This document shows positions 22,820 to 37,750 of a stretch of DNA of 64,000 nt, piece after piece (the stretch's first letter is position 1; every line of letters starts with the position of its first letter). The DNA comes from a virus. Its lineage: Duplodnaviria; Caudoviricetes. The stretch is from positions 1 through 64,000 of the IMG/VR virus record IMGVR_UViG_3300011678_000001. One strand, written 5' to 3'. The notes beneath the pieces were generated by a model. That model saw only the letters and a list, made by a program, of their open reading frames with translations. It had not been told where the DNA came from and did no database searches. The position numbers were made by a program, and so were the translations under genes.

Positions 22820-25219
22820 ATGAGTACTGTACTTCCACAATACCCTTTCGATCCGACGGGGCTCGCGGTATCGAACAAGGTGACCGAAACTCAGGCGATT
22901 GAATCGCGTGGGATGTTCGATCACTATTACATCATCCCGCGCAGCGGCCCGTTCTATGCTGAGAGCGTAAGGCTTCGGTTGTATCCGGTTGGCGCTAACG
23001 TCAATAACCCGGCAGGCGGCACCCCTCTTGAAGAAGGTGTGCATTTTAACTTCGGGTACCATTTCGCCCACGCATCACATACCATTGGAAAGCCCGTCTA
23101 CGGGGCGATCTCCTTTTATGACCGGGACTTGGTTGGTCAGCTGCGGATGGAATACCAGAGCCTAGGTGGCGACTGGGTCCTTGACAACCAGAAGATGTCT
23201 GAGTTGCTGTTGAACGTGGCCTACAACCCACGTATCGCAACATGGGAACAGGTTGTTGAACTGCCGCATCAATTCCCGGTGGTCAACCATGACTTCAACA
23301 TCGACGATTTCGTCGGCATGGGTGAAGTGGTCGATACGCTCGAAGACATCACCAAGGCCATCGAAGAGAAAACCGCCGGTGGTCAGGCTGATCACGTCAA
23401 TAATAAGAACAACCCACACGAGGTCACAAAAGACCAAGTCGGGTTGGGCTTGGTGGACAACTTCCCCACAGCCGCCGTTGCCGAAGCCATTGGTGGAACC
23501 GCCAACAACCGGTTCATGACGCCTCTTCGGACCAAGCAGCTGATTGACGCGGTGGCTACGGTCGCCCTCAATGCTCACGTTGCAGATAAGACCAACCCTC
23601 ACGAAGTGACCAAAGCTCAGGTCGGTCTGGGTAACGTGCAGAACTATGCACTGCCTTCTCAAGCGGAAGCGGAAGCTGGGGCCAGTAACGCTCGTTATAT
23701 GACGCCGTTGCGCACCCGTGAAGCCATTGAAGCCATTGTTGGGGTAGCGTTTGCTGCACACGCCAACAACCGGACGAACCCTCACGGGGTGACGAAGGCT
23801 CAAGTAGGTCTGGGTAACGTTCCGAACATTGGTGTTGCTACCGATGCCTCGGCGCTGCAAGGTATTGCCGATGACGGGATCATCACGCCACGTCTGCTTA
23901 GCATGGTGTTGTCTGAAACCGTAGGTGAAGGGGTTACCGATCACATCGCCAATGCGAGCAACCCTCACGGGGTGACGAAGGCGCAGGTTGGATTGGGCAG
24001 TGTGCAGAACTACGGGATTGCCAGTGAGGCTGAAGCCCGTGATGCCACGTCGAACCTCAAGTACATGACGCCGTTGGCCGTTCGGTACGCGGTGGCAGCA
24101 TTGGTTGGTGAAGGCGGCGTGGGTGATCACATCACCAACTTCGAAAACCCACACCACGTCACAGCCGCTCAAGTCGGTACCTACACCGCTGAAGAGTTGG
24201 ACGTCATCCTGGCTGACAAACTCGATGATACAGCTGCGGCGGCCGACGCCCTGGCTATCTTCGGCATGTCGCAAGGTGAAGTTGAAACCTGGATCGGTGG
24301 CCTACGGTCGGGTAACAGCGCCCTGTTCGACGGTAACACCTACGCCCAAGCCAAAGCAGACATCCTGGCCGGTAAGGCAGCCGATTCGGCTAAGCTTGAC
24401 GGGAAGAGCTACGCTGAAATTGCAGCGGCCATTGGCTCGGCAGTAGAAAGCGGTAACTTCCAGCACACCGTCCCACCGATCACCCCGGTGGCCGATGAGA
24501 TGGGTAATATCGGTGAAGCACCTGAGCACTGGCTCAAGATTGGTAAGTACCTGCAGCCGCTGGATTACCAATACGGGGACATGACGCTGCTGATCACCGG
24601 TGGTCGTGACGAGGACTCGGAAACCGAACGGCACCATACCGTACTGTTCGAGATGTCCACCACCAACGACTACCCGATCGATGGCATGGACTACATGCCG
24701 TTGTTGGTTCGCGGGCCGCGGGTCAAGCACATGACGCCTGCGGAAGATCGAATCGAGCTGGGTTACGTCATCACCGACGGTGCGGATGTCACTCGACCAT
24801 TCATTGACATTTACATCCGTACCCGCGGTCAGCGGACAGGGTGGACGGTCACTGAACTGTCGAACAAGTACTTCGTGCCAGAAGTGTTCGGGATCATTGA
24901 TGAGGTTGAAGACCTGATCACCGTGGAACCGGCTGGTATCGTGTACCCGCCTGTCATCACCGACGGCTCAGAAGAGATCAAGGCGCTGCAGACCTTTGCA
25001 GCCCGCACAGACAACCCGCATCAGGTCACCAAGGCCCAAGTCGGACTGGGGTCTGTTCCCAACTACCCAGCGGCGTCTTCTGCTGAAGCATTGAGTGGCA
25101 GTGCCACCAACCGCTTGATGACTCCTGCCACCACTCAAGCCAACGTCAATCAAGCCATTGATGCGCTGTGCAATGAGTTGTCCGGTGTCATCGACACTGC
25201 AATGCCGCTGTTCGCTTAA
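22820..25219 (+). CDS. Tail fibre protein with H..NPH.VTKAQVGLG.V.N repeats
   Basis: Six copies of the repeat; N-terminus YPFDPTG...IIPRSGPFYAES; GGAG RBS. Confidence 0.8.
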   Translation: MSTVLPQYPFDPTGLAVSNKVTETQAIESRGMFDHYYIIPRSGPFYAESVRLRLYPVGANVNNPAGGTPLEEGVHFNFGYHFAHASHTIGKPVYGAISFYDRDLVGQLRMEYQSLGGDWVLDNQKMSELLLNVAYNPRIATWEQVVELPHQFPVVNHDFNIDDFVGMGEVVDTLEDITKAIEEKTAGGQADHVNNKNNPHEVTKDQVGLGLVDNFPTAAVAEAIGGTANNRFMTPLRTKQLIDAVATVALNAHVADKTNPHEVTKAQVGLGNVQNYALPSQAEAEAGASNARYMTPLRTREAIEAIVGVAFAAHANNRTNPHGVTKAQVGLGNVPNIGVATDASALQGIADDGIITPRLLSMVLSETVGEGVTDHIANASNPHGVTKAQVGLGSVQNYGIASEAEARDATSNLKYMTPLAVRYAVAALVGEGGVGDHITNFENPHHVTAAQVGTYTAEELDVILADKLDDTAAAADALAIFGMSQGEVETWIGGLRSGNSALFDGNTYAQAKADILAGKAADSAKLDGKSYAEIAAAIGSAVESGNFQHTVPPITPVADEMGNIGEAPEHWLKIGKYLQPLDYQYGDMTLLITGGRDEDSETERHHTVLFEMSTTNDYPIDGMDYMPLLVRGPRVKHMTPAEDRIELGYVITDGADVTRPFIDIYIRTRGQRTGWTVTELSNKYFVPEVFGIIDEVEDLITVEPAGIVYPPVITDGSEEIKALQTFAARTDNPHQVTKAQVGLGSVPNYPAASSAEALSGSATNRLMTPATTQANVNQAIDALCNELSGVIDTAMPLFA

Positions 25220-25225
25220 GCACTT

Positions 25226-25260
25226 AGCCCACTGCGCTCCGGTGCAGTGGGTTCGTGTTT
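25226..25260 (+). terminator. Stem-loop between the tail fibre genes
   Basis: CCCACTGCGC-TCCG-GTGCAGTGGG then TTCGTGTTT. Confidence 0.55.
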
Positions 25261-25288
25261 GAATTACTTTTGACGATGGAGCAGATCC

Positions 25289-26860
25289 ATGAGTGTACCA
25301 CCAATTATCCAGTATCCGCTTGATCTGGTCGGAACGTCCCCTACGAACAAAATCGTAGGTGAGCGCCGCGAGATCAACACCGGTGCTGAGCGTGTATTCG
25401 TACCTAAAGCAGGTCCGTTCTACACCGAGAGCTTTGTCATCTATAATGACGAGACAGGCGAACCGCTGCGCCCCGTCGACGACTACCTCTTGGTACAACC
25501 TTTCGCACAAGCGGCACTGCGAAGCGGTAAAGATGTTCAATCGGCTATTGTGCTGAAGATCCCTGCCCCGGTGATTGTCCGACTGGATTATCAGGTCGTG
25601 GGCGGTGAGTATTCCTGGAACCTCGGGGCCTTGGCAGATCTGATCGCTGAGCTTAACCTCGATGAGCGGGCGGTCAAGTGGGGGTCGATCATTGGTCGTC
25701 CGATCATGTATCCGGCTGCGCCGCACATCCACGACATCGGTGACACCTACGGTTGGGAATACGTGGTGTGGCAGTTGGAGCGGGTCAGCAACGCCATCCT
25801 GGTGGGTGACGAGGCGTCTCACGAAGAACTGCGTCAGCAGATGCTCTACCTTGATGAACAGCAGCAACTGAAGATCGACGCGGTCGAAGACAAGGTTGTT
25901 GAACACATCGAGGACATGGGTAACCCGCATCAAACCACCAAAGCACAGGTGGGTCTGGGTTCGGTGGATAACTTCCCGACCGCTACGGATGTGGAGGCCA
26001 ACGCGGGCACTGCATTGAACCGTTTCATGGTGCCGGGCACGACCACGGTGCTGGCCAGCCGGATTGCCAACGAAGCAGTCAATGTTCACGAAGCCAAGAA
26101 GACCAACCCGCACGGTGTGACCAAAGCGCAAGTGGGTTTGGGGAACGTCGACAACTTCCTGACGGCTACCCAAGCACAAGGCGAATCGTCCACCGTCAAC
26201 GACAAGTTCATGACGCCGCTTCGGACGTACCAAGCAATCATGGTCCATGCCGGTACACTGTTGAACACGCACGTGAACAACAAGAACAACCCGCATGAAG
26301 TCACTAAGGCACAAGTAGGCCTTGGGTCGGTGGATAACTTCCAAACCGCCAGTCGTACTGAAGCGGTCGAAGGCACTTCCAATGCACGCTTCATGACCCC
26401 GCTGCGGACCAAAGAAGCGATTGATGCCATTGCCGGTAACCTGCTGAATGCTCACGTTCAAAACCTGAGCAATCCACACCAGGTGACCAAGGCGCAGGTA
26501 GGGCTCAGCGTTATTCCGAACTCTATCACCCGTAGCCGGACGTCTAACACAGACGCGTCGCTGCTGACAGCAGGCGGAATGTATGATCACGTCAACTCGG
26601 CTGACCATGACAACCGCTATGTACGCCTGAATACGACCACCAACACCAGTCTGCGGATCGTGAGCAACAAACTGCAGTGCTACATCAGTGGTGCTTGGCG
26701 TCAAATCTGGCCCGCGACCTGGACCGGACATGCGGCTGAAGGCGCAGCGGACCCATCGAACACCGGGCAAGAGATTCAGCTGCTGGTAGCCGGGGGTCGT
26801 CTGTATGCAACCGTGGCTGGCGCTTGGCAACAGGTATGGCCGGCGCAGTGGACGGATTAA
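25289..26860 (+). CDS. Tail fibre protein, paralogue of the previous gene
   Basis: Homologous N-terminus (YPLDLVG...FVPKAGPFYTES), four NPH-VTKAQVGL repeats, duplicated Trp-rich C-terminal motif. Confidence 0.8.
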   Translation: MSVPPIIQYPLDLVGTSPTNKIVGERREINTGAERVFVPKAGPFYTESFVIYNDETGEPLRPVDDYLLVQPFAQAALRSGKDVQSAIVLKIPAPVIVRLDYQVVGGEYSWNLGALADLIAELNLDERAVKWGSIIGRPIMYPAAPHIHDIGDTYGWEYVVWQLERVSNAILVGDEASHEELRQQMLYLDEQQQLKIDAVEDKVVEHIEDMGNPHQTTKAQVGLGSVDNFPTATDVEANAGTALNRFMVPGTTTVLASRIANEAVNVHEAKKTNPHGVTKAQVGLGNVDNFLTATQAQGESSTVNDKFMTPLRTYQAIMVHAGTLLNTHVNNKNNPHEVTKAQVGLGSVDNFQTASRTEAVEGTSNARFMTPLRTKEAIDAIAGNLLNAHVQNLSNPHQVTKAQVGLSVIPNSITRSRTSNTDASLLTAGGMYDHVNSADHDNRYVRLNTTTNTSLRIVSNKLQCYISGAWRQIWPATWTGHAAEGAADPSNTGQEIQLLVAGGRLYATVAGAWQQVWPAQWTD

Positions 26861-26900: not shown

Positions 26901-27410
26901 ATGTTACAGAAAATCGATTTTCAGTTCCAAGGCATTACCGAAGAACTGCTGATGGTGGACGAGTTTCTGTCAAGCCCCCACCCTTACGAACAAGGGCTGG
27001 TCAAGTACGTGTACAAGGATGCCTCCTTTGGGCTTAACAGCCCCATGGAGTATCTGGAGCACTGCGATGACAAGCCCATCAAGGTTGAAGGCTATGAACG
27101 CCTGAATGCCACGATGTTCCGCGAGTGTCAACGGCTGGCAGACTACTTTGGCCACATCGGCTACGTGTCCTGTCACCTGTTCATCTCGCCTAAGGGTTCA
27201 TCCAGTTTCTCGATGCACACCGATCCAGATGACGTGGTGGTCCATGTCATCACCGGTGGCAAAGATTTCGAATCCATCGGTCAACGTGAGTCGCTTAAGG
27301 CAGGCGAAGTCCTGTACATCCCGCGCAACCACCCACACCGTGCCATCAACACTGACAGTTCCCTCATGCTGAGTTTTGGCTTGGAGCTGTTCCTGGAGCA
27401 AAAGCTTTGA
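26901..27410 (+). CDS. JmjC/cupin-type Fe(II)/2OG oxygenase
   Basis: HTDPDDV (HxD)...GGK...LKAGEVLYIPRNHPHRA. Start ATG 26901. Confidence 0.8.
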   Translation: MLQKIDFQFQGITEELLMVDEFLSSPHPYEQGLVKYVYKDASFGLNSPMEYLEHCDDKPIKVEGYERLNATMFRECQRLADYFGHIGYVSCHLFISPKGSSSFSMHTDPDDVVVHVITGGKDFESIGQRESLKAGEVLYIPRNHPHRAINTDSSLMLSFGLELFLEQKL

Positions 27411-27412
27411 GC

Positions 27413-28447
27413 ATGAACAAAACCATCTACGTCAAAACCACCGGGACCTGTAACCTGGATTGTCATCACTGCTTCACCAATGGCAAGAACGGGGACAAGA
27501 CCCAGTTCGACCCAGACGAGACAGCCGAGTGGGTCCGGTCGTTCATGGCCAAATACCCCAAGGACACCCACTACCACATGGAGTTCCATGGTGGCGAGCC
27601 TTTCTTGGTACCGGTGGAAAAGCTCAAACGCTATGCGGATCAGTTCATCGATCATCCGCATGTGACCATGTGTGCCAACAGCAACCTGACCTTCAAGTTG
27701 ACCGACGCGCACATTGCGTTCATTCAGGATTACTTTGGCGGTTTCATTGGGACCAGTTGGGACCATTGGATTCGTTGGGGTAACGACAAGCAGTTCCAGT
27801 TGTGGAAACGCAATCTGGAAACGTTGAAGAGTCATGATGTGGGGATTGCCCTCAAGGTGTCGGTGAGTCGGCAACTGTTGACCATGACGCCTGACTGGTT
27901 CTTGGACCAGATGGAAAGCCTGGCCGTGGACGAAGTGTCCTTGGAACGGTTGACCATGGACGGCAGTGCGCAATGTAACGTGGGCATCTTCCCGGACAAT
28001 GAAGAACAGGACAACTGGTACCTGGCGCTCTATCACCGTTATAAAGCCCGCAATGGGCGGGTGAAGATCAAGACGCTGGACATCATTGAGGAGAAGCTTA
28101 AGACCAACCGAGTCAAGGTCGACACCAACTGCCGCAACTGTGAGCAGAACCTGGTGACGATCAACTCGGACGGTTCGCTCTCCGGCTGCCCGAACGCGGC
28201 AGCTTCTCTGCACCATGCCCGTCTTGAAGACGGTGTGGATGCATTCTTGACCTCAGAAGGGTTGCTCAAGGAAATCACCGAAGAGCTGACCTGGAATGAT
28301 CCCTGTCTTTCGTGCGATGTGTTCGACCTGTGTGGTGGCGATTGCCATCGACTGCCTTGGCAGAATGGACGCTGTGGGGGTCTGAAGAACACCCTGCGTT
28401 ACCTGTCTGGTCGTAATCAGCAATCCAATTTGATTTTAAAGGTGTAA
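27413..28447 (+). CDS. Radical SAM protein 1 with SPASM-like C-terminus
   Basis: CNLDCHHC, FHGGEP, C-terminal CRNC..GCPN..CLSCDVFDLCGGDC..RC. Confidence 0.9.
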   Translation: MNKTIYVKTTGTCNLDCHHCFTNGKNGDKTQFDPDETAEWVRSFMAKYPKDTHYHMEFHGGEPFLVPVEKLKRYADQFIDHPHVTMCANSNLTFKLTDAHIAFIQDYFGGFIGTSWDHWIRWGNDKQFQLWKRNLETLKSHDVGIALKVSVSRQLLTMTPDWFLDQMESLAVDEVSLERLTMDGSAQCNVGIFPDNEEQDNWYLALYHRYKARNGRVKIKTLDIIEEKLKTNRVKVDTNCRNCEQNLVTINSDGSLSGCPNAAASLHHARLEDGVDAFLTSEGLLKEITEELTWNDPCLSCDVFDLCGGDCHRLPWQNGRCGGLKNTLRYLSGRNQQSNLILKV

Positions 28448-28448
28448 C

Positions 28449-29000
28449 ATGACTGAACAGATTACCCGTCAACGGTTGGCCAACGAAGGCAACTGGCGTA
28501 TTCGGGATCGCTGTAACAGCGGTATCAGTTGGGGAACCAACAACTATCCAGCCAACTCTGATCCGGGTTGGTTTGGCGGCACCACCGGCGGCTTTGGTCA
28601 CACGCTCAGCCGAGGCAATTTCGCGGCCGGTGAACCCAATGTAGCCCAGACAGTGGCGGCTCTGAGAGCCTTTGCCAACAACTGGGGTGGTGTTCGTCTC
28701 ACGCGCATCCTGATTTACCGGACCAAGTCCGGCTACTCCAGCGGTAACGGTGACATCCTGGAATACGATGGGACCGCCGTGGCAAACACCGCGTACGGTG
28801 TCGGTAACTTTGCAGCGTCAGCGGCGATGTCGACCATGCGCGATGGCGTGGACATGGATCTGGCCGGTCTTCAGACCGCTCTGGACGATCTGTGGAACAC
28901 CTACGTTGCCTATGCCCGTAACAACACAGCCACCCTGTCCCGCGTCATCTGCCACACCAGCTGCCACAGTAACTGTCACTGCGCCCGCGGTCGGCGGTAA
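28449..29000 (+). CDS. Candidate substrate/precursor protein with C-terminal CHxx repeats
   Basis: 183 aa, Gly/Asn/Ala-rich, ends VICHTSCHSNCHCARGRR; starts 1 nt after the rSAM1 stop. Confidence 0.7.
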   Translation: MTEQITRQRLANEGNWRIRDRCNSGISWGTNNYPANSDPGWFGGTTGGFGHTLSRGNFAAGEPNVAQTVAALRAFANNWGGVRLTRILIYRTKSGYSSGNGDILEYDGTAVANTAYGVGNFAASAAMSTMRDGVDMDLAGLQTALDDLWNTYVAYARNNTATLSRVICHTSCHSNCHCARGRR

Positions 29001-29024
29001 CACCCATGACCTGTCATGCAACCA

Positions 29025-29046
29025 GGAGCTGGCGTGCGCCAGCTCC
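29025..29046 (+). other. Strong hairpin downstream of the candidate precursor gene
   Basis: GGAGCTGGC-GTGC-GCCAGCTCC with no U tract. Confidence 0.6.
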
Positions 29047-29065: not shown

Positions 29066-29821
29066 ATGAGCGAACAGCCAATCGCCCCCATTCAGATTCG
29101 TACCACTGCGCCGATTCCGGCTGCAGACCTCAAGCGTAAGTTCACAGAAGACATCCAGTTTGTCATCGACGTTGATAACAGTCGACTGAAGGGTCGGGCC
29201 TTTCTGACCTACCTGTCGAACCTGAACATCAACTGCAAGTTGGAGTTCCAGTCAAACGATGCATTGTTTGCCCTGCTGGGTGAATACTTGGCATCGACGC
29301 TGCTGGTCAAGGTACCGGATTTGGAAGACCTGGCCATGAACGTGATGTTGGCCGCTTCAGGCCGTCAGCATGTGTTGGCGTTCGATCCGTCTGAGTTCAT
29401 CGATACCCACGCCGATGCCATTAACACCTGGCTCAAGCGTCTGTGCTCCCTCCCGTTGTTTGCCCTGTACTGCCAACCACAGTTCAAGGAGGAGATCGAG
29501 CAGAGCTTCCCAGAAGACACTGATGAATCCACGGTGGGGATCAACTTCGTTCGGTTGATCGAGCATGACTTCTTCCCGTTGATGATGGCGGGGATTGATG
29601 AGTCAGAGTACAGCTGGAACAAGACCTTCTTCAACGAATACATCTTCGCCGGTGACAACCTGTTCAAGTTCTTTGCGAGCATGAACAATCCCTTCTTTGT
29701 AGGGATCTTGGGCAGCCAGTGCCCGGATGAATTCCAAGCCATCCTGCCGCCGATGCAAAGCGTGCTGGAAAAGACTTCCCTGATCGTGAAGGAAATCGAA
29801 CATGTATCATCTTCGCAGTAA
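29066..29821 (+). CDS. Hypothetical protein in the rSAM cluster
   Basis: 251-aa ORF from ATG 29066 (MSEQPIAP); overlaps the next gene. Confidence 0.7.
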   Translation: MSEQPIAPIQIRTTAPIPAADLKRKFTEDIQFVIDVDNSRLKGRAFLTYLSNLNINCKLEFQSNDALFALLGEYLASTLLVKVPDLEDLAMNVMLAASGRQHVLAFDPSEFIDTHADAINTWLKRLCSLPLFALYCQPQFKEEIEQSFPEDTDESTVGINFVRLIEHDFFPLMMAGIDESEYSWNKTFFNEYIFAGDNLFKFFASMNNPFFVGILGSQCPDEFQAILPPMQSVLEKTSLIVKEIEHVSSSQ

Positions 29822-30857
29822 AGCCTACGTCGAGATCGACTCGCGTATCACCCGTGAACACCCGTATGTAGCCTTCGGTCAGCATGTGGGTTACGAGCAC
29901 TGCCCGGTGGAAAACGAAATCGCTGCGACCCAGTTGGGTTACGCTGATTCGCTGGACACCATGAAGCCTGAAGCCTTCGCTAAAGTGATGGCTGAAGCCT
30001 TCGCCAGCAAGGACAAGGTGTTCATCTTTGCCGATGGCAAGACGTACCTGCGTTTGTACGCCATGGCGGTCAAAGCCCTGCTGCCGTCAGTGACCCTCGA
30101 TGTGTTCCGCTGGATCTTCCTGTGCAAGAAGGCGACTTTCAACGTCTCCTTGCTGAACATCCGCAAGCCCGCGTCGAACATCCTGGCCGAAGTCGAAATC
30201 AACGCCAAGACCATCGAGGCGCTGTACAAGTTCAACGATCCGCTTCAGGACGTCATGACTGAGCTGATGTGCGCCGCCCCTGACGAAGTGTCGTTGGAAT
30301 GGCGCATCCTGCGTCTACTCACCGATGACCGCGTGGGTAAACTGCCCAAGGTCCTGCGTAACATCCTGCGCCGCATTGCATTGGCCAACACCCATGATGC
30401 CCTCGATGTTTGGGGTCGCATGATTGCTGACCCTGGCATGTGGGAGTTCGCCGGCTGCGACATGGACACCCTGATGAACGGCAACAGTGTCTTTGAAGGC
30501 ACGTTGAACTTCCACTACCTGAACAACCCCATGTTCTTGCAGCCGGGTGTGTTCGAGAACGAACCGACCCGTGACTGGGTACTGGGGCTGCTCCGTGAGT
30601 TAATCAAGGTGCTGGAGTTCTGTGACGAAGGTCCGACCGCCGGTCGTACACGTTTGATTCTGGAGTTGATGACCTCAGACACGAACATCTACACCCCTGA
30701 AGCCTTGAAAGAACGCGTCATGGTCATGTTCAAAGGCGCTAAGCGCCTGGCCCTGCCGAACGCTGATTCGGGCAAGTACGATGAGAACCTCATCCGCTAC
30801 GTGCTGCACGAGGACGTTGATGTCCTGCGTCAGTGCGTCCAAGGAGCGAAATGGTAA
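29802..30857 (+). CDS. Hypothetical protein in the rSAM cluster
   Basis: 351-aa ORF with AAGGA RBS; TAATG coupling to rSAM2. Confidence 0.75.
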   Translation: MYHLRSKAYVEIDSRITREHPYVAFGQHVGYEHCPVENEIAATQLGYADSLDTMKPEAFAKVMAEAFASKDKVFIFADGKTYLRLYAMAVKALLPSVTLDVFRWIFLCKKATFNVSLLNIRKPASNILAEVEINAKTIEALYKFNDPLQDVMTELMCAAPDEVSLEWRILRLLTDDRVGKLPKVLRNILRRIALANTHDALDVWGRMIADPGMWEFAGCDMDTLMNGNSVFEGTLNFHYLNNPMFLQPGVFENEPTRDWVLGLLRELIKVLEFCDEGPTAGRTRLILELMTSDTNIYTPEALKERVMVMFKGAKRLALPNADSGKYDENLIRYVLHEDVDVLRQCVQGAKW

Positions 30858-31852
30858 TGGACCTGATTCCCGTAGTGAACATCCTCCAAGAGAAGAAAGG
30901 TAAGTGGAAAGAAGCGCACCTGATTCTGTTTGAGTACTGTAATCTACGGTGTTCGTTCTGCCATCAAGACCACGACTCCAAGGTGGGGTTTGACAGCATC
31001 GCTGAGAAAGTCGAGACGCTCATTGCCAGTACCGATCCACGTCAACCGTACGTGGTGAACATGACCGGCGGTGAGCTGTTCCTCGATGAGTTCCCGGATG
31101 AACTGTTCGAGCAATATTACCAGGCTGGCAAGCGGATCTTCGAGCACTTCGAGAACGCCTTGCTGGTCCTGGGTACCAACCTGGTCTATCATAAGGTCGA
31201 GCGTCTGGTTGAACTTGTCAAGCGCCTTCAAGCCCATGGCAAGGTCCAGATTGCAACGTCCTATGATCCCGCTGGCCGGTTTGACCGGGTGGGGCGGATG
31301 CTGTTCTTCCATAACCTGCACAAGGTGAAAGAATACGTCAGGACCGTCAACGTTGTGATCACCAAGCAGAACATCGAGGCCTTCCTAAGTGAAAACGAAG
31401 GATACGAAGTGGCCTGGATGTGCGAACACTTCGATGTGTACTTCGACCATTACATCCCCAGTCAGATGTACGAGTACATCCAGCCGGATGAAGACCTGAT
31501 CAGTCAGCTGTACCTGAAACTCAATGAGCGCTACCCGAACTCCTATCCAATCAAGGACTGGAAACAGAATGCGTTCAATGAGACCACCTGCCGCTCTACG
31601 AAGATCGTCAACAAAGATGGGATCGTGAGCACCTGTTGGTCAGAAGCCGGCAAGAACGCCATCCTCGATGAAGCCGAAGGTCTCAAAGCCAAGGACGAAG
31701 CGGAGATGCGGTTTGTCGAGAAGTACGACTGTTTCTCCTGTGAGTATTACTCGCGGTGCGGCATGCGGTGCTTCCTCCATCACTCGTTCATCGAGGATGG
31801 AAATTCGACCTGCCAGATCAAAGAGATGTTCTCTAAGATTATCGAAGCGTGA
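30857..31852 (+). CDS. Radical SAM protein 2
   Basis: CNLRCSFC, MTGGEL, C-terminal CFSCEYYSRCGMRC...C. Confidence 0.9.
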   Translation: MDLIPVVNILQEKKGKWKEAHLILFEYCNLRCSFCHQDHDSKVGFDSIAEKVETLIASTDPRQPYVVNMTGGELFLDEFPDELFEQYYQAGKRIFEHFENALLVLGTNLVYHKVERLVELVKRLQAHGKVQIATSYDPAGRFDRVGRMLFFHNLHKVKEYVRTVNVVITKQNIEAFLSENEGYEVAWMCEHFDVYFDHYIPSQMYEYIQPDEDLISQLYLKLNERYPNSYPIKDWKQNAFNETTCRSTKIVNKDGIVSTCWSEAGKNAILDEAEGLKAKDEAEMRFVEKYDCFSCEYYSRCGMRCFLHHSFIEDGNSTCQIKEMFSKIIEA

Positions 31853-32185: not shown

Positions 32186-32209
32186 CAGGTAGCCTAAGGA
32201 GTATTCATC

Positions 32210-33298
32210 ATCGACGTTATCCTGAAACCGACTGCGAGATGCAACTTCAAGTGTACGTTCTGCTCTAGCACGTACCTGAGCGATGATAATAAAGAAATCG
32301 TCGAACTCACGCAGGTCGAACGGTTTATCCAGCGATTCCCTGAGACCCGGACGGTCATCGTAAACGGCGGCGATCCGTTGATGATGCCGCCTCAGTATTA
32401 CTGGGATCTGATCGCCATCCTGGATCGATTAGAGTCAAAGGCCAGTATTTCGTTTACCACCAACCTCTGGCCCTTCTACAAGAAGCCTGAGCTGTGGGAA
32501 GAGTTGTTCCGGCATCCTCGTGTCGGCGTGACCACCTCGTTCCAATACGGGGATGGGCGCTTGAAAGGCGATGGTACGCCATTGACCGAAGCTGAGTTCA
32601 TCGCCATGAGCGATCTGTTCTTGGAACGCATCGGTTATCGGCCTGACTTCATTGCGGTGATTGACAAGGACAATGAACACACTGTGCTTGACACCGTACG
32701 CCTTGCCCAGCGACTCGGGGTAGAGGCTAAAGTCAATTATGCTGTCGCCTCGGGCCCTGTGGTGGTCAACAAAGGCATCGCCATGGGGCATGCGGAAAGC
32801 ATGTACACCCAAGCGGACATGTACAAAGCCTACATCGAGATTTACGATGCAGGGCTCATGCAGTGGGAGTTCAACACCAAGCAGATGGTCAAGCGCATCA
32901 AGACGCAGAACACCATCTGCCCCTTGTCCCGTGAGTGTGACAGCGGGATTCGCAGCATCCAACCGGGTGGTGGGTATTTCTCCTGTGGCGCGTTCGGTGA
33001 TGACCTCAAATACCCCATCGACTTTGAAAAAGAGATGAATGGGGAGTTCTTCCAGCCGTTGAGCAATCAGGAAGAGTTGTGGTCGATGAAGGAGGCGTGC
33101 AATGAATGCCCGATGTTCCTCATCTGCAACGGGTGCCGCAAGACCATCACCGACACCAAACGGTTAGGCTTGGCTGAGCATCACTGCCAGACCATGAAGA
33201 GCATTGCCCCACGGCTCATCGAACTGAACGGGATGCAGGATTACCTGACCCCCACCCCTTACGTGGACGAATCGGTCCAGATCATCGCCCGAGGTTAA
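32210..33298 (+). CDS. Radical SAM protein 3 (non-canonical ATC start or mutated start)
   Basis: The frame extends upstream of the ORF-track start: IDVILKPTARCNFKCTFCSS...NGGDP. In-frame TAA at 32195; TAAGGAG lies 8 nt before ATC 32210. C-terminal CNECPMFLICNGC...HHC. Confidence 0.8.
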   Translation: MDVILKPTARCNFKCTFCSSTYLSDDNKEIVELTQVERFIQRFPETRTVIVNGGDPLMMPPQYYWDLIAILDRLESKASISFTTNLWPFYKKPELWEELFRHPRVGVTTSFQYGDGRLKGDGTPLTEAEFIAMSDLFLERIGYRPDFIAVIDKDNEHTVLDTVRLAQRLGVEAKVNYAVASGPVVVNKGIAMGHAESMYTQADMYKAYIEIYDAGLMQWEFNTKQMVKRIKTQNTICPLSRECDSGIRSIQPGGGYFSCGAFGDDLKYPIDFEKEMNGEFFQPLSNQEELWSMKEACNECPMFLICNGCRKTITDTKRLGLAEHHCQTMKSIAPRLIELNGMQDYLTPTPYVDESVQIIARG

Positions 33299-33789: not shown

Positions 33790-34794
33790 ATGTCGCGACC
33801 GCAAATAAACCTCAGCATCAATCCATCGTACTACTGCAACTTGCGGTGCGAGTTCTGTTATTTGACTCCTGAGCAATTGGGGGACCGGACGCGTCTGGAG
33901 TTGGACAAGTTCGAAGAGGTGTTGCTCGACGTCATGCAGCATTATGACATCGGTCATGTCGACATCTATGGGGGCGAAGTCCTGTTGTTGCCGCCCGAGT
34001 ACTTGCAAGGGATGAAAGACATCCTGCTCACGTACGGCATTGATGACATTGTTCTGGTGACCAACCTCACCCTGACCAATGAGATCACCGACGATCTGGA
34101 TTTCGAACTCTCGGTCTCCTACGACTTCGGAGCACGGGAGATGCATGAGCGGGTGTTCAACAACCTGCTGATGCTCCCGCGCCCGTACACCATCCTGACC
34201 TTGGCCAGTCGGAAGTTCTTGGACACCGTGAGTGTGGATGAATTCGTCCAGACCATGAACATGCTGAGCAATGCCAAGGACGTCGAGATCAAGCCGTACA
34301 GCTCCAATCAAGCCAATGCCCACCCAGTGTACTACGATGAGTTCGAACGCTTCGTATGGGCGGTTATAGAGCACCCTGAGCGCACGTTCTACTTCGAGAA
34401 TGAGCGGCAGGTAAAGGAAGCGGCTGAAGGGCTTCGAAATGCCTTCAGTGACGACCACCTGTACATCACCCCGACCGGTCAATTGGCCGTGTTGGAGTTC
34501 GATGCCAATGACAATGAGTTCTTCCTGCCCGTTGATGGGGTAGAAGGTTACCTTGCGTGGTGTGCAAAAGAAAAGCAGGCCGTGACCACCAATGGTCATT
34601 GCGGGACCTGCACCTACATGGGACATTGCCTTTCCGAGCACTTGCGGGAGGTCACCGACTTGTCCCGTTCCTGTAACGGTTTTAAGGGGTTACTCGACCT
34701 ATGGACAACCCACACCTCGTCCAACACCGACAGCGCTTGGAGATCACGCTTGATCTATTCCGAGGCTGCCAGCACCACTGCTCCGGATGCATGA
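33790..34794 (+). CDS. Radical SAM protein 4
   Basis: CNLRCEFC, IYGGEV, C-terminal CGTCTYMGHC...SC; GAGGGGG RBS. Confidence 0.9.
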   Translation: MSRPQINLSINPSYYCNLRCEFCYLTPEQLGDRTRLELDKFEEVLLDVMQHYDIGHVDIYGGEVLLLPPEYLQGMKDILLTYGIDDIVLVTNLTLTNEITDDLDFELSVSYDFGAREMHERVFNNLLMLPRPYTILTLASRKFLDTVSVDEFVQTMNMLSNAKDVEIKPYSSNQANAHPVYYDEFERFVWAVIEHPERTFYFENERQVKEAAEGLRNAFSDDHLYITPTGQLAVLEFDANDNEFFLPVDGVEGYLAWCAKEKQAVTTNGHCGTCTYMGHCLSEHLREVTDLSRSCNGFKGLLDLWTTHTSSNTDSAWRSRLIYSEAASTTAPDA

Positions 34795-35729
34795 TCGACC
34801 GCACCATGGGTGGGGACGTTAATGACCTGCCTGAGCTGCAAGCCCTCATTGAAGAAATGGTGGGCGTCGGGTACGTGGCGTTTGATTTGGGCATTGGCCC
34901 AACGGACTACATGAGTGCCGACAACAAAGATGAAGTCATGGAGCACCCGATCTTCCAGTCCATGGCGCAACTGTTTCATCAGGTGACCTTCAACGCGGCC
35001 TTCCTGGAGAAGGACCTGAAGAAGTACACCGCCATGTGTCAGGAGATTGATGTCTGTGTGCCGGGTAAACCGATTCGCTTCTTGATTCCGGCGGCCCCAC
35101 ACTTCTTCAAGACCAATAAGTTCAGTGATATGATCAACATGAAGCTGAACCACATCAAAGACAACCTGCACAACGCCTTCTTGAATGAAGCAGGCTTTGT
35201 GGTCAACTGCACCAAGGACACCGTCGATGACGAGTTCGAGGAGATGCTGATCAAAGGCTTTGATGTGGAGTTCCCGGTCGACAAGGATGACATCTTAAAC
35301 ATCCCGTACGGGCGCGCTCCAATCAAGGACTTGCAAGTGGCGCAACAGATCCAGCGCATGAGCTATCGGATCAGTTCGTACTACAAGCAGTTGAATGGGA
35401 CTGATGAACGGCGCAAGAACCCGGACCTGTGCCTGAACACCGGGACCATGATGAACCTGCTGTACACCGACGGCAAGCTGTACTGGGTGCCCTTCTTGAA
35501 AGACGACTGTCCGTTCCTAGAAGACGCCTTTACCGTGCCCAAGCCCTGGACTATGGATAACTTGCTAGCAACTCGTCAGCAGGCCTTGGACGCGTCTTTA
35601 GAGTACCTGAAAGACACGCCGTGCATGGAGTGCCCGTACGTCTCCAGTTGTTCGGAGAAGGGCATCACCAGCATCATGAAATTCATGGGCATCAAAGACT
35701 GCTTGGTAGGGCTTGAGTATGCACAGTGA
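34701..35729 (+). CDS. Divergent radical SAM-like protein 5
   Basis: CQHHCSGC, GIGPTD in place of GGE, C-terminal CMECPYVSSC...C. Confidence 0.75.
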   Translation: MDNPHLVQHRQRLEITLDLFRGCQHHCSGCMIDRTMGGDVNDLPELQALIEEMVGVGYVAFDLGIGPTDYMSADNKDEVMEHPIFQSMAQLFHQVTFNAAFLEKDLKKYTAMCQEIDVCVPGKPIRFLIPAAPHFFKTNKFSDMINMKLNHIKDNLHNAFLNEAGFVVNCTKDTVDDEFEEMLIKGFDVEFPVDKDDILNIPYGRAPIKDLQVAQQIQRMSYRISSYYKQLNGTDERRKNPDLCLNTGTMMNLLYTDGKLYWVPFLKDDCPFLEDAFTVPKPWTMDNLLATRQQALDASLEYLKDTPCMECPYVSSCSEKGITSIMKFMGIKDCLVGLEYAQ

Positions 35730-36759
35730 ACGTGTCTCACAAACCTTCAACTTAGGGTTGGAGGTGTTGAAAGGGTGTGGCTACAGTTGTTCAGGCTGCA
35801 CCGTGGATAAGAACTTTGCGGATTTTGAAGTCCCTGAAGAAGATGCCCGCGCCCTGCTAGCGCTACTCGAGGACCTCAAGCAGCAAGACTGGCGGATGTT
35901 GGAGCTGAAGATTGGCCCCACTGACATCACCAGTTCGGACAATGGCTTTGCGGTGTTGCAACACCCGGTGATCAAACAGATTGCCTCGTACTACAAAGTC
36001 TTGACCTTGAACGCTGCGATGCTGCATGACCGTAACCTGCCTGAACTCGCGGCGCTGTGCGATGAGCTGATGCCGGGCAAGTACGTCAACATCGGCACCC
36101 CTTTTACGTTGAAGAACGTGGCCAACGAAAAGTACATGGCGATGATGAAGGAGCGGCTGGCGTATTTCCAAAGCCTGCTGAAGAAAGCCTCCTTCACCCG
36201 TCTGTACGCCACAATCAACATCGAGGAGGAAAACCTCAAGCAGTTCAATGCCGAATCCTTCAGCCTGATCCGTAACTACGATTTCGGCTCCGGGATTGAC
36301 AAGGTCATTGAGTTCCCGTTTGTCAATGCCCGTCAAGGGTTTGATAACCTGCTCAACGCCGAGCGGTTTAAACGGGACATCAAGCAGTTTGCCGACTTCT
36401 CCAAGACGCGGGTCAACACGCATGAATTCATCCCGTTGATCCCAGGCGTCAAGGAAGGGTACGAGTACACCTACCGCACGGGTAAGCTCTATTCCACCAT
36501 CGTGTTGGTGGAGAACCTCACCCTGTACAAAGACAAGTACGAACTGGCCCGCCCTTGGACGGGTGCACGGTTGCTCGAGCACCGTGAAAATGCGTACATC
36601 AACAACCTGATCAAGTACAGCGAACACCCAGAATGTGGGGACTGCTGTTTCTTGGACCACTGTGCCCGGTGTGATGTGCAGCATCTGATGGAGGAGACCG
36701 GGTCTGACCGGTGCCTGATCGAGATGAAGAACCGCTGGGACCTCATGGGAGAACACTGA
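35719..36759 (+). CDS. Divergent radical SAM-like protein 6
   Basis: CGYSCSGC, KIGPTD, C-terminal CGDCCFLDHCARC...C; paralogous to protein 5. Confidence 0.75.
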   Translation: MHSERVSQTFNLGLEVLKGCGYSCSGCTVDKNFADFEVPEEDARALLALLEDLKQQDWRMLELKIGPTDITSSDNGFAVLQHPVIKQIASYYKVLTLNAAMLHDRNLPELAALCDELMPGKYVNIGTPFTLKNVANEKYMAMMKERLAYFQSLLKKASFTRLYATINIEEENLKQFNAESFSLIRNYDFGSGIDKVIEFPFVNARQGFDNLLNAERFKRDIKQFADFSKTRVNTHEFIPLIPGVKEGYEYTYRTGKLYSTIVLVENLTLYKDKYELARPWTGARLLEHRENAYINNLIKYSEHPECGDCCFLDHCARCDVQHLMEETGSDRCLIEMKNRWDLMGEH

Positions 36760-37190
36760 TGGATCACCTGCCGTATAAACCCTTCCAACGCCTTTATGAC
36801 GAATTGGTGCAAGAGCACAGCGATGCTTTTGAACTGATGGAGTTCGTGGAGGACGAGGAGTTGGTGGATAACGCCTTGAAGTATTTCGAGTCGGCTACCT
36901 TCCCGTTGATCTACCCGGCCAAGAGTTACGCCGTGGCGATCATCTACGCCTTCAAGCTCAAGGAACTCTACGGTCTGGACATCTACACAGTGCTGGACGA
37001 TGCCGACCTGTTCTTGGGTCAGGATGAGTACTTCGTTCCGTACAGTCAAGACCCGGCCACCTATGACGCCATCATCGAGAAACTCGAGAAGGTGGATAAC
37101 TGGTTGGAGAAGGGCTGGGCACCGAAGTCTGTGCAGTACTGCCTGCTCGAGTGCACGGAAGCCGGTATCACGTCATTGACGGAGGTGTGA
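36759..37190 (+). CDS. Hypothetical acidic protein in the rSAM cluster
   Basis: TGATG coupling; 143 aa MDHLPYKPF... Confidence 0.7.
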   Translation: MDHLPYKPFQRLYDELVQEHSDAFELMEFVEDEELVDNALKYFESATFPLIYPAKSYAVAIIYAFKLKELYGLDIYTVLDDADLFLGQDEYFVPYSQDPATYDAIIEKLEKVDNWLEKGWAPKSVQYCLLECTEAGITSLTEV

Positions 37191-37191
37191 G

Positions 37192-37749
37192 ATGGAAACC
37201 ATCAGTCTATGGGCTACCCCATTGGCAAAGATCAACGTGGCCGATCAGTTCGATATGGCTGCCTACGCCGATGAAGTCTTCACCCTGTTCAGCATGACCA
37301 ACGGAGAAGACGACCGTCAGCGTTGCATCGATGAAGAATTGTTTCCAATCATCCTCACCATGCGTGATGAGGTGATCACCCCAGCGGTGCAAGCGTACTG
37401 CCAAGAACACTTTGGCGAAGCCATGTTTCCCTTCTACGTGGAAACCAATGGTAAATGGATCGAAAATGGGGAAGGTCTGTACCCACATCTGCATCCAGGC
37501 AGTATCGTTTCAGCGATCTGCTATCCGGGCGATTCCACCAACGCCTTGACCATGTTTGATCCCAGGATGAATGCGATGCGTGGCTACCCCAAGCGCATGC
37601 GTAACCATCACTTCCCCAACTTCAAGATCAGTCCGAAGCAAGGGGATGTGTGGATCTTCCCCAGCTATGTGCAACACAGCGTCAGCCATGTGACTGAAGA
37701 CATGCGCCTGTCCTTGCTGCACGAATACTACCAAACCAAGGACCTGTAA
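37192..37749 (+). CDS. Putative 2OG-Fe(II) oxygenase (TIGR02466-like)
   Basis: PHLHPGSIVSAICYP...FDPR...PKQGDVWIFPSYVQHSV...RLSL. Confidence 0.8.
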   Translation: METISLWATPLAKINVADQFDMAAYADEVFTLFSMTNGEDDRQRCIDEELFPIILTMRDEVITPAVQAYCQEHFGEAMFPFYVETNGKWIENGEGLYPHLHPGSIVSAICYPGDSTNALTMFDPRMNAMRGYPKRMRNHHFPNFKISPKQGDVWIFPSYVQHSVSHVTEDMRLSLLHEYYQTKDL

Positions 37750-37750
37750 C

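What the first reader, a model, noticed from the sequence alone, without database searches (positions are those of the whole stretch)
28449..29046. Candidate substrate: 183-aa protein ending in a (CHxx)3 cassette plus GRR
Seen: C-terminus VI-CHTS-CHSN-CHCA-RGRR, with 4-residue periodic Cys-His, on an otherwise nearly Cys-free Gly/Asn-rich body. The gene is 1 nt after rSAM1 and is followed by a 9-bp GC hairpin without a U-tract, which could stabilise this part of the mRNA as in RiPP precursor genes. Known: ranthipeptide/SCIFF precursors have Cys-rich C-terminal cores, and His-Xaa-Ser repeat peptides are rSAM-associated. Inference: the tail is the modified core (thioether or His crosslinks, hydroxylation) or a metal-binding tip. 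The long body suggests a structural carrier protein rather than a classical leader.
Basis: partly seen in the sequence, partly recalled or inferred. Interest (0 to 1): 0.85.

Follow-up and report, generated by a model that had tools for sequence, protein, structure and literature searches.

The report
Radical-SAM-linked Cys-His tail on phage fibre protein
A jumbo phage encodes a small, probably trimeric particle protein whose last 16 residues, (Cys-His-x-Ser)x3 plus Arg-Gly-Arg-Arg, are almost unchanged in hundreds of phages and always lie directly after the same radical-SAM enzyme gene, so the tail is most likely finished chemically by an undescribed protein-maturation pathway.

Summary
ORF 28449-29000 (+) encodes 183 aa ending VI-CHTS-CHSN-CHCA-RGRR. 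It starts 1 nt after a SPASM radical-SAM gene and is followed by a 9-bp hairpin.

The tail is the hallmark of a large unnamed family. Of 267 distinct sequences, 243 end CHx[S]-CHx[S/N]-CHx[S/A/N]-RxRR, while the bodies share only about 20% column identity.

In 92 loci the gene order cupin, rSAM1, CH protein, unkA, unkB, rSAM2-4 is nearly fixed. rSAM1 lies directly upstream in 88. The tail keeps this position even on an unrelated 587-aa body. Loci without RxRR also lack rSAM2, rSAM4, the cupin and an acidic protein.

The body is a confidently modelled alpha/beta domain with no PDB match, and the tail is disordered. Some relatives carry a Peptidase_S74 trimer-chaperone domain after the CH block. 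The Atu_ph07 homologue gp170 is a virion protein found mainly in the top gel slice.

Best reading, about 0.6: a trimeric fibre-cluster virion protein whose tail is matured by rSAM enzymes, with the chemistry unknown. Main rival: an unmodified metal-binding knot.

The closest known system is the bacterial HXS system, but it is not a member. An earlier agent of this scan reached a similar reading on other DNA. I found no paper describing the family.

The parts
28449..29000 (+). CH-tail protein gene (183 aa): an alpha/beta body (residues 1-168) followed by the tail
   Evidence: Translation. The AF2 model has pLDDT 92.4, with tail pLDDT 56-59. The family was defined.
28950..28997 (+). Codons for the invariant tail C168-R183 (CHTS-CHSN-CHCA-RGRR), the proposed maturation site
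   Evidence: Tail logo over 243 canonical sequences: Cys, His, R-4, R-2 and R-1 are invariant, and the first unit's fourth residue is Ser in 230 of 243.
27407..28447 (+). rSAM1: a radical SAM enzyme with a full SPASM domain, translationally coupled to the CH gene
   Evidence: It has CNLDCHHC plus 8 invariant C-terminal Cys. TIGR04085 SPASM scores 28.6 bits against a cut-off of 27. It is directly upstream of CH in 88 of 92 loci.
26901..27410 (+). Cupin/JmjC-type oxygenase, the first gene of the module
   Evidence: Pfam JmjC_2 4.9e-10 and Cupin_2 2.9e-8. It is two genes upstream of CH in 76 of 92 loci.
29025..29046 (+). 9-bp GC-rich hairpin with a GUGC loop in the 65-nt spacer after the CH gene
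   Evidence: It is shared only with L013.
29066..29821 (+). unkA (251 aa), a conserved partner of unknown fold. The start is placed at the ATG after the hairpin.
   Evidence: It is directly downstream of CH in 89 of 92 loci. It matches phrog_20767. The AF2 model has pLDDT 94 and no PDB match. The ATGAGCGAACA start is conserved in L013-L015.
29802..30857 (+). unkB (351 aa), a conserved partner with no family
   Evidence: It is the next gene in 80 of 92 loci. No Pfam or PDB sequence hit.
30833..31852 (+). rSAM2 (start uncertain). It co-occurs with the RxRR end of the tail.
   Evidence: Pfam Radical_SAM and phrog_1802. Present in 69 of 69 RxRR loci and 0 of 7 non-RxRR loci.
32210..33298 (+). rSAM3, with a probable ATC start. 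Together with rSAM1 it is kept in every module variant.
   Evidence: CNFKCTFC lies upstream of the first canonical start. The ATC aligns with the ATG of the L018 orthologue. Present in 68 of 69 RxRR loci and 7 of 7 non-RxRR loci.
33790..34794 (+). rSAM4
   Evidence: Pfam Radical_SAM 5e-8. Present in 66 of 69 RxRR loci and 0 of 7 non-RxRR loci.
34701..36759 (+). rSAM5 and rSAM6, a tandem pair of divergent CxxxCxGC paralogues found only in the jumbo-phage clade
   Evidence: Present in 27 and 13 of 69 RxRR loci respectively.
36711..38308 (+). An acidic protein (pI 4.2) followed by two 2OG-Fe(II) oxygenases (PF13759)
   Evidence: The acidic protein is present in 40 of 69 RxRR loci and 0 of 7 non-RxRR loci.
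22820..26860 (+). Two tail-fibre genes (799 and 523 aa) directly upstream of the module
   Evidence: They match tail/virion PHROGs (phrog_2163, phrog_13857) with E values down to 1e-130. Modules in other lineages are also preceded by fibre or giant structural proteins.

Best explanation
The gene encodes a virion protein of the tail-fibre cluster, probably a homotrimer. It has a compact alpha/beta body of unrecognised fold and a flexible 16-residue C-terminal tail, (C-H-x-S)x3-R-G-R-R. The tail is the recognition and maturation site for the phage's own radical SAM/SPASM enzymes. rSAM1 is universal and coupled to the gene; rSAM3 is also universal; rSAM2 and rSAM4 are tied to the RxRR end. The protein would therefore be a protein-sized, RiPP-like substrate.

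The most likely products are radical-installed crosslinks. One option acts on the His-x-Ser units, giving a His-to-C-beta cyclophane as in triceptides or an HxsA-type modification. The other is a Cys thioether as in ranthipeptides or QhpC. Either would lock the three chains together or build a metal-binding or reactive knot at the end of a fibre accessory.

Shown: motif conservation, synteny, the tail's independence from the body, covariation with the enzyme set, trimer-chaperone fusions in relatives, and virion presence of one homologue.

Inferred: that the tail is modified at all, the chemistry, which enzyme does what, and the trimer.
For: 1. Conservation. 243 of 267 distinct sequences end CHxS-CHx[SN]-CHx[SAN]-RxRR with Cys, His and Arg invariant. 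The body has about 20% mean column identity, while rSAM1 has 55%.

2. Synteny. rSAM1 is directly upstream in 88 of 92 loci, unkA is directly downstream in 89, unkB is next in 80, and the cupin is two genes upstream in 76. Gaps are mostly -28 to +4 nt.

3. The tail is portable. Proteins of 374-612 aa, including an unrelated coiled-coil body, end in the same tail. In L098 the 587-aa form still overlaps the end of rSAM1.

4. Covariation. All 69 RxRR loci have rSAM2 and 66 have rSAM4. The 7 non-RxRR loci have neither, and also lack the cupin and the acidic protein, but they keep rSAM1, unkA, unkB and rSAM3. The non-RxRR forms sit at two separate places on the rSAM1 tree.

5. The tail is disordered in a confident model: body pLDDT above 90, tail 56-59.

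6. rSAM1 has CxxxCxxC plus a full SPASM domain. All 44 orthologues hit peptide or protein maturases: PapB 44, anSME 43, YhhB 40, HxsB 33 and the CXXX-repeat-target rSAM 11.

7. Unit number varies from 2 to 13, as in repeat-type rSAM substrates.

8. Precedents. HxS repeats of the 214-aa HxsA protein are matured by rSAM enzymes, with a +8 Da change on SHRSS (PMC13128918). His-C2 to C-beta crosslinks form on Hxx motifs (PMC11499958).

9. Structural role. P0129 and P0192 carry PF13884 (Peptidase_S74) directly after the CH block. Atu_ph07 gp170 (31.89 kDa) is in the virion with 8 peptides and 35% coverage and is most abundant in the top gel fragment. Its neighbours gp168, 169, 171 and 172 are not listed as virion proteins.
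Against: No data show any mass change on the tail.

Three Cys plus three His per chain in a trimer is also what a self-assembling metal site would look like, and the Peptidase_S74 fusions show that the region can fold with a built-in chaperone.

rSAM1 scores far below every curated family cut-off (45-47 bits against 340-445), so no chemistry can be assigned.

The covariation rests on only about two independent lineages. In one of them (L085) a 317-aa ORF without CxxxCxxC sits at rSAM2's place and a 630-aa CxxxCxxC protein is present.

The Atu_ph07 gel buffer lists no reductant, so disulfides could explain the high-mass migration of gp170.

Four to six rSAM enzymes and three oxygenases are more than one 16-residue tail would seem to need, so some of them may act on the fibres, unkA, unkB or a small molecule.
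Confidence: 0.58

Rival explanations
1. The tail is an unmodified metal-binding trimerisation knot. Three chains contribute Cys/His layers that chelate Zn or Fe on the three-fold axis, as the HxH motifs of the T4 gp37 tip bind iron. The neighbouring rSAM enzymes and oxygenases act on something else, such as the fibres, unkA, unkB or a small molecule.
For: Cys and His are invariant at a fixed 4-residue period. Relatives carry a Peptidase_S74 trimer chaperone directly after the CH block, and sister forms without that domain end about where its cleavage would leave them. The protein is structural in Atu_ph07 and runs at high apparent mass. The module always follows fibre genes. The T4 gp37 comparison is from my own knowledge.
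Against: This reading does not explain several observations. The tail, not the body, stays glued to rSAM1, even on an unrelated body. Loss of RxRR goes together with loss of rSAM2, rSAM4, the cupin and the acidic protein. The residue two positions after each His is held to Ser, Asn or Ala. The fibres themselves are not conserved across the modules: fib1/fib2 appear in about 30 of 92 loci, while the CH protein is universal.
Confidence: 0.27
2. The CH protein is a scaffold on which a small molecule or cofactor is built from its C-terminus and then released, in the manner of PqqA/PQQ or MftA/mycofactocin. That would explain the many rSAM and oxygenase genes.
For: The island holds 4-6 rSAM enzymes, 3 oxygenases and two unknown conserved proteins. 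The C-terminal position of the motif resembles those precursors (comparison from my own knowledge).
Against: No protease is recognisable in the module. The protein is a virion component in Atu_ph07. Some relatives carry a fibre-type chaperone domain after the motif. The body diverges quickly and takes insertions, as exposed structural proteins do.
Confidence: 0.06
3. The CH protein is an Fe-S or electron-transfer helper, or an assembly chaperone, for the rSAM enzymes. The Cys/His tail would bind a cluster.
For: It is rich in Cys and His, is encoded among six Fe-S enzymes and is coupled to rSAM1.
Against: CxxxCxxxC with an invariant His and Ser is not a known cluster motif (my own knowledge). 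The protein is in the virion while the enzymes are not. Some relatives are fused to Peptidase_S74. The body varies far more than the enzymes do.
Confidence: 0.04

Closest known systems
HXS antiphage system: HxsA with rSAM enzymes HxsB/HxsC and HxsD (TIGR03976-03979; PMC13128918)
   Same: In both, a full-size protein rather than a short peptide carries tandem His-x-Ser units in a basic context. Both are encoded with two or more radical SAM enzymes and small unknown partners. In HxsA an S-H-R-S-S unit gains +8 Da and is essential.
   Different: HXS is bacterial, periplasmic and defensive, and HxsA has a peptidoglycan-binding domain. Here each unit begins with an invariant Cys, the motif is at the extreme C-terminus and ends in RGRR, and the protein is a phage particle protein. 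The module also adds oxygenases, unkA and unkB. The CH protein does not hit the HxsA model, no module protein tested hits HxsD, and the rSAM enzymes hit HxsB/HxsC only at 19-27 bits against cut-offs of 268-370.
Triceptides: three-residue cyclophane RiPPs made by 3-CyFE rSAM/SPASM enzymes (HaaB, HtkB, YhhB; PMC11499958)
   Same: Both have repeated aromatic-X-X units with His as the aromatic residue and a small residue at position 3. rSAM1 orthologues hit the YhhB, FxsB and AmcB models.
   Different: Triceptide precursors are short peptides with leaders, made in bacteria. Here the substrate would be a 183-aa folded virion protein with a Cys before every unit. The enzyme hits are far below the cut-offs, and no crosslink has been shown.
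Ranthipeptide/SCIFF precursors with PapB/CteB, and QhpC with QhpD
   Same: These are C-terminal Cys arrays with 4-residue spacing, modified by SPASM rSAM enzymes. PapB is the most consistent hit of rSAM1 orthologues (44 of 44). QhpC is a precedent for thioether crosslinking of a protein subunit (my own knowledge).
   Different: SCIFF is about 45 aa, has no His, and occurs in Clostridia. No SCIFF or CXXX-repeat precursor model hits the CH protein. The invariant His and Ser are unexplained by thioether chemistry alone.
Trimeric phage fibres and spikes with a Peptidase_S74 intramolecular chaperone (endosialidase, T5 pb1), and the metal-binding tip of T4 gp37
   Same: Relatives P0129 and P0192 carry PF13884 directly after the CH block. 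The gene lies in the fibre cluster and the homologue is a virion protein.
   Different: The window's protein has no chaperone domain. The body is a globular alpha/beta domain with no fibre repeats. No known fibre has a (CHxS)n end or dedicated rSAM genes.

Membership tests
HXS system (HxsA/B/C/D) | Effector matches the HxsA model (TIGR03979) | tested here: not met
   No NCBIfam hit for the CH protein at E <= 0.01.
HXS system (HxsA/B/C/D) | Tandem His-x-Ser units in the effector | tested here: met
   The window's units are H-T-S, H-S-N and H-C-A. In the family, position His+2 is Ser in 230 of 243 sequences (unit 1), Ser or Asn in 237 of 243 (unit 2), and Ser, Ala or Asn in 243 of 243 (unit 3).
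HXS system (HxsA/B/C/D) | Paired rSAM enzymes are HxsB and HxsC equivalogs, plus HxsD | tested here: not met
   rSAM1 against HxsB scores 27 bits (cut-off 370). rSAM2 and rSAM3 against HxsC score 19 and 27 bits (cut-off 268). unkA, unkB, the acidic protein and the small ORFs give no HxsD hit.
Triceptide (3-CyFE) pathway | Repeated aromatic-X-X motifs in the substrate | tested here: met
   Three H-x-[S/N/A] units. The motif definition is from PMC11499958.
Triceptide (3-CyFE) pathway | Maturase belongs to a 3-CyFE family (YhhB, FxsB, AmcB, GrrM) | tested here: inconclusive
   The hits are 45 bits against cut-offs of 370-445. They are no better than the hits to anSME or PapB.
Triceptide (3-CyFE) pathway | Aromatic-to-C-beta crosslink (-2 Da per unit) | not testable with these tools
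   This needs MS or NMR of the tail.
SCIFF/ranthipeptide precursors | Short leader-plus-core peptide that matches the precursor model | tested here: not met
   The protein is 183 aa with a folded 168-residue body. No NCBIfam precursor hit.
SCIFF/ranthipeptide precursors | Adjacent SPASM-type radical SAM maturase | tested here: met
   rSAM1 has CxxxCxxC and SPASM (TIGR04085, 28.6 bits against a cut-off of 27). It ends 1 nt before the CH gene.
Sulfatase/anSME formylglycine system | C/S-x-P/A-x-R target motif and an anSME equivalog | tested here: not met
   The last unit is C-H-x-[S/A/N]-R. Its third position is Gly, Ser, Cys or Asn; Pro never occurs there and Ala occurs in 7 of 243. rSAM1 scores 47 bits against anSME, cut-off 349.
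Peptidase_S74 (intramolecular chaperone) trimeric fibres | PF13884 domain at the C-terminus | tested here: not met
   The window's protein has no Pfam hit. Relatives P0129 and P0192 do have it, at E 1e-9 and 1.5e-11.
CH-tail family (phrog_35144 and relatives, unnamed) | C-terminal (CHxS)2-13 block, usually RxRR-COOH, encoded directly after the rSAM1 orthologue | tested here: met
   phrog_35144 matches the tails of long variants.

The most novel reading that the evidence does not exclude
Phages, and some Bdellovibrio-like predators, use their own radical SAM enzymes to weld the ends of a trimeric host-contact protein. The welds would be radical-installed His-carbon and/or Cys-thioether links between or within chains at the (CHxS)n tail. 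This would be the first enzyme-made radical crosslink in a virus particle, produced by an eight-gene maturation pathway that includes two proteins of unrecognised fold.
Probability: 0.3. Interest if true: 0.9.

Novelty: new variant of a known kind. Interest (0 to 1): 0.8.

Why it matters
Radical SAM maturation is known for peptides and for a few cellular proteins. It is not known for virus particle proteins.

This module is widespread. The IMG/VR scan confirmed 176 relatives. Cultured hosts include Pseudomonas, Ralstonia, Burkholderia, Agrobacterium and Sinorhizobium phages. It also sits in a Bdellovibrio-like chromosome, next to proteins with pilin-type N-termini and chaperone-like C-termini.

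The module has so far been mentioned only as an "unusual" set of rSAM genes. If the tail is modified, this would define a new substrate class and possibly new chemistry. It would explain a conserved block in many jumbo phage genomes. It would also point to a way of hardening or arming host-contact structures.

The idea can be tested directly by co-expression and mass spectrometry.

Tried and rejected
- **Complex prediction.** I ran rSAM1 (alignment A5) with three 4Fe-4S clusters, SAM and the CH protein (alignment A2). The score was ipSAE 0.01 and the tool's verdict was 'no answer'. This is not evidence either way.
- **Fold searches of the CH body.** Foldseek against PDB gave nothing at E <= 0.001. 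The VIA wide search gave a best Z of 5.5, to a designed protein. The ESM Atlas search by shape gave TM below 0.4. BFVD returned only family members.
- **unkA.** The AF2 model is good (pLDDT 94). Foldseek found no match, and the best VIA hit was Z 4.4 over 55 residues. The Atlas look-up gave nothing usable.
- **unkB.** Atlas feature hits were 0.85 or lower, which is a lead at most. Pfam and PDB sequence searches of the unkA and unkB alignments were empty.
- **Family libraries.** The CH protein has no hit in Pfam, NCBIfam or PHROGs.
- **Isolate phages.** tblastn of the window protein found only pPa_SNUABM_DT01. Two distant family members found no isolate phage. The unkA protein was needed to reach RSL2, Atu_ph07 and the other isolates.
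- **Formylglycine reading.** Considered and set aside, because the motif test failed.
- **Hairpin as a family feature.** Rejected.
- **P0122 (775 aa).** This is a spurious repeat hit, not a family member.
- **Literature.** Searches for phage rSAM virion modification found only passing mentions.
- **Careful maximum-likelihood tree.** It did not finish in time, so the quick tree was used.

Full report
**What is there.** The window is part of a 269,790-bp jumbo phage genome. It is syntenic with Pseudomonas phage pPa_SNUABM_DT01, whose closest relatives a published paper places in the chimallin-encoding Chimallinviridae (PMC12390700).

ORF 28449-29000 (+) encodes 183 aa ending VI-CHTS-CHSN-CHCA-RGRR. 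It begins 1 nt after the stop of a radical SAM gene. Outside the tail the body has one Cys and one His. A 9-bp hairpin lies at 29025-29046.

From the phage's own composition, about 1e-5 such (CHxx)3 runs are expected. The genome has exactly one, and all six of its CxxxCxxC proteins lie in this island.

The hairpin is shared only with the closest relative and is absent from the others. It is therefore a local feature. The next gene, unkA, starts at ATG 29066.

**A large family defined by its tail.** A word-indexed search gave 79 relatives. An exhaustive HMMER search gave 138 cluster representatives. A scan of IMG/VR gave 176 confirmed relatives.

Of 267 distinct sequences, 243 end [V/I]-C-H-x-S-C-H-x-[S/N]-C-H-x-[S/A/N]-R-[G]-R-R-COOH. 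Every Cys and His, and three Arg, are invariant. The bodies average only about 20% column identity.

Variants have 2 to 13 CH units. Some end in CHGSI/CHGSL or in CH-GDGPGxGGG instead of RxRR. No Pfam or NCBIfam model covers the family, and the window's protein misses the family's PHROG, phrog_35144.

**The body.** With a 136-row alignment, AlphaFold2 gives a confident compact alpha/beta domain: pLDDT 92.4 and pTM 0.85 for residues 1-168. The tail scores only 56-59, so it is flexible in a monomer.

Foldseek against PDB, a full VIA scan of 48,161 chains (best Z 5.5, a designed protein) and the ESM Atlas gave no convincing fold match. I report this as 'no recognised relative', not as proof of a new fold.

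**The module.** I called ORFs in 92 loci and classified them with HMMs built from the window's proteins. The order cupin/oxygenase, rSAM1, CH, unkA, unkB, rSAM2, rSAM3, rSAM4 is nearly universal, and an acidic protein and 2OG oxygenases often follow.
- rSAM1 is the gene directly before CH in 88 of 92 loci. The rest are contig edges or start-calling problems.
- unkA is the gene directly after CH in 89 of 92 loci.
- unkB is next in 80 of 92 loci.
- The cupin is two genes upstream in 76 of 92 loci.

Intergenic gaps are mostly -28 to +4 nt.

rSAM1 is highly conserved, with 55% mean column identity. Its CxxxCxHC motif and eight further Cys are invariant, which makes a complete SPASM domain. All 44 orthologues tested hit peptide or protein maturase models, always far below the curated cut-offs: PapB 44, anSME 43, DynA 43, YhhB 40, HxsB 33 and the 'CXXX-repeat target' rSAM 11. 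rSAM1 is therefore a generic SPASM protein/peptide maturase of no named family.

unkA gives an AF2 model of pLDDT 94. Neither unkA nor unkB has a recognisable family or fold match.

**Evidence that the tail is what the enzymes care about.**

First, the tail is portable. Proteins of 374-612 aa end in the same VCHSSCHSxCHGSRGRR. Some have Gly-rich insertions and one group has an unrelated coiled-coil N-terminus. In L098 that 587-aa protein still overlaps the end of the cupin-rSAM1 pair.

Second, tail type and enzyme set change together.

| Component | RxRR loci (n=69) | Non-RxRR loci (n=7) |
|---|---|---|
| rSAM1 (directly upstream of CH) | nearly all (88 of 92 loci overall) | kept |
| unkA | 69 | 7 |
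| unkB | 62 | 7 |
| rSAM2 | 69 | 0 |
| rSAM3 | 68 | 7 |
| rSAM4 | 66 | 0 |
| Cupin (upstream) | 65 | 0 |
| Acidic protein | 40 | 0 |

These counts cover loci with at least 7.9 kb of sequence downstream (the rSAM1 row is). On a quick rSAM1 tree the non-RxRR forms sit in two separate places. One of these, L085, is a long branch. It has a 317-aa ORF in rSAM2's position and an extra 630-aa CxxxCxxC protein. I therefore count this as suggestive, not strong.

The universal core is rSAM1, CH, unkA, unkB and rSAM3.

**Evidence that the protein is structural and trimeric.** In one subclade, on a 241-kb TARA contig and on freshwater contigs, the CH block is followed by GDGPGDG and then a Peptidase_S74 domain. 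This is PF13884, E 1e-9 and 1.5e-11, above its cut-off. Its SDxRLK motif begins directly after the linker. As far as I know, this domain occurs only at the C-terminus of homotrimeric phage fibres and spikes, where it drives trimer folding and then cuts itself off.

Sister proteins without the domain end about where that cut would fall.

The module is always preceded by fibre or giant structural genes.

The published virion proteome of Agrobacterium phage Atu_ph07 lists Gp170 at 31.89 kDa. That is exactly the mass of the CH homologue, which ends FCHSSCHASCHNSRSRR. It was found with 8 unique peptides and 35% coverage in gel fragments 1-9, and was most abundant in fragment 1. The other proteins listed as most abundant in fragment 1 are 87-127 kDa (PMC6102473 Table S5). 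The neighbouring cupin, rSAM1, unkA and rSAM (gp172, 171, 169, 168) are not in that list.

A 32-kDa protein running mainly at the top of an SDS gel fits a trimer or a conjugate that survives boiling in SDS. The stated loading buffer has no reductant, however, so disulfides cannot be excluded.

**Comparison with known systems.** This is the bacterial HXS antiphage system. HxsA is a 214-aa protein with five His-x-Ser repeats. It is matured by the rSAM enzymes HxsB and HxsC together with HxsD, and an essential S-H-R-S-S unit gains +8 Da (PMC13128918).

Triceptide synthases make His-C2 to C-beta links on H-x-x motifs (PMC11499958). Ranthipeptide/SCIFF cores show the same 4-residue Cys spacing (my own knowledge).

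The phage tail combines both signatures: C at a period of 4, and H-x-S in every unit. It is not a member of any of these families. The CH protein does not hit the HxsA or precursor models, no module protein tested hits HxsD, and the enzyme scores are a tenth of the cut-offs. The sulfatase motif C-x-P/A-x-R is not met.

**Distribution.** Isolates carrying the module include DT01, Ralstonia phages RSL2, RSF1, RsoM3USA and FLC4, Burkholderia phages FLC6, FLC8 and SURPRISE13, Agrobacterium phage Atu_ph07 and Sinorhizobium phage Phosso. Published papers only remark on the unusual number of rSAM genes.

Among 185,579 species genomes only four loci appeared, three of them in Bdellovibrionaceae MAGs. 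There the module is rearranged but complete.

One 110-kb contig carries SecA, cytochrome oxidase subunit I, FabH and histidine kinases on both sides of the module. The three MAGs gave no portal, terminase or sheath hits. This copy therefore looks chromosomal.

Directly upstream of its rSAM1 are three paralogues. By eye they have prepilin-type N-termini (GFTLIE) and chaperone-like C-termini.

**Verdict.** The motif, its conservation and its linkage to rSAM genes are solid. The structural, probably trimeric, virion role is well supported.

That the tail is an rSAM substrate is the best explanation (about 0.6) but is unproven. An unmodified metal-binding knot is the main rival (about 0.27). The chemistry is open: His-x-Ser crosslink, Cys thioether, or both.

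The complex prediction gave no answer and is not used as evidence.

Noticed in passing
32195-32380: rSAM3 has no ATG, GTG or TTG before its essential CNFKCTFC motif. The ATC at 32210, 8 nt after TAAGGAG, aligns with the ATG of the L018 orthologue (I-D-V-I-L-K-P against M-D-L-I-L-K-P). The likely causes are a near-cognate start or a recent ATG>ATC change.
   Followed up: partly
28449-29000 and family (P0002-P0207): The CH family is strongly depleted in lysine. The median is 1.1% Lys against 6.6% Arg, and 91 of 161 canonical members have two or fewer Lys. The window's protein has 1 Lys and 16 Arg. This is unexplained; possibilities include protease resistance or avoidance of a reactive group.
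   Followed up: partly
L101 1-6300; L104, L105 (Bdellovibrio-like MAG contig): A rearranged but complete CH/rSAM module lies in a contig flanked by SecA, COX1, FabH and histidine kinases. Directly upstream of its rSAM1 are three paralogues with prepilin-type N-termini (GFTLIE) and C-termini that resemble the Peptidase_S74 chaperone (SDRRFKSDI...GFIAQDVE).
   Followed up: partly
L098 9001-10764; P0216-P0219: A 587-612 aa protein with a coiled-coil N-terminus unrelated to the usual body ends in the canonical tail and sits directly after cupin-rSAM1. In this locus unkA and unkB are moved and a second rSAM1-like gene is present.
   Followed up: partly
L011 10001-10684 (P0086): One close relative of the jumbo-phage clade has 13 CH units (CHxSCHxSCHSNV... 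repeated) before RGRR, with the same enzyme set as the window.
   Followed up: no
34701-36759: rSAM5 and rSAM6 are a tandem pair with CxxxCxGC, with no Pfam Radical_SAM hit at the E 0.01 limit used. They occur only in the jumbo-phage clade (27 and 13 of 69 loci).
   Followed up: no
L002 13338-15149; L059 11223-13001; L085 12026-13918: Many non-jumbo modules carry an extra protein of about 600 aa with CxxxCxxC near residue 210-235. One such protein in the Bdellovibrio-like contig has B12-binding and Radical_SAM domains (L104 9985-11859). This is another enzyme class in the module.
   Followed up: no
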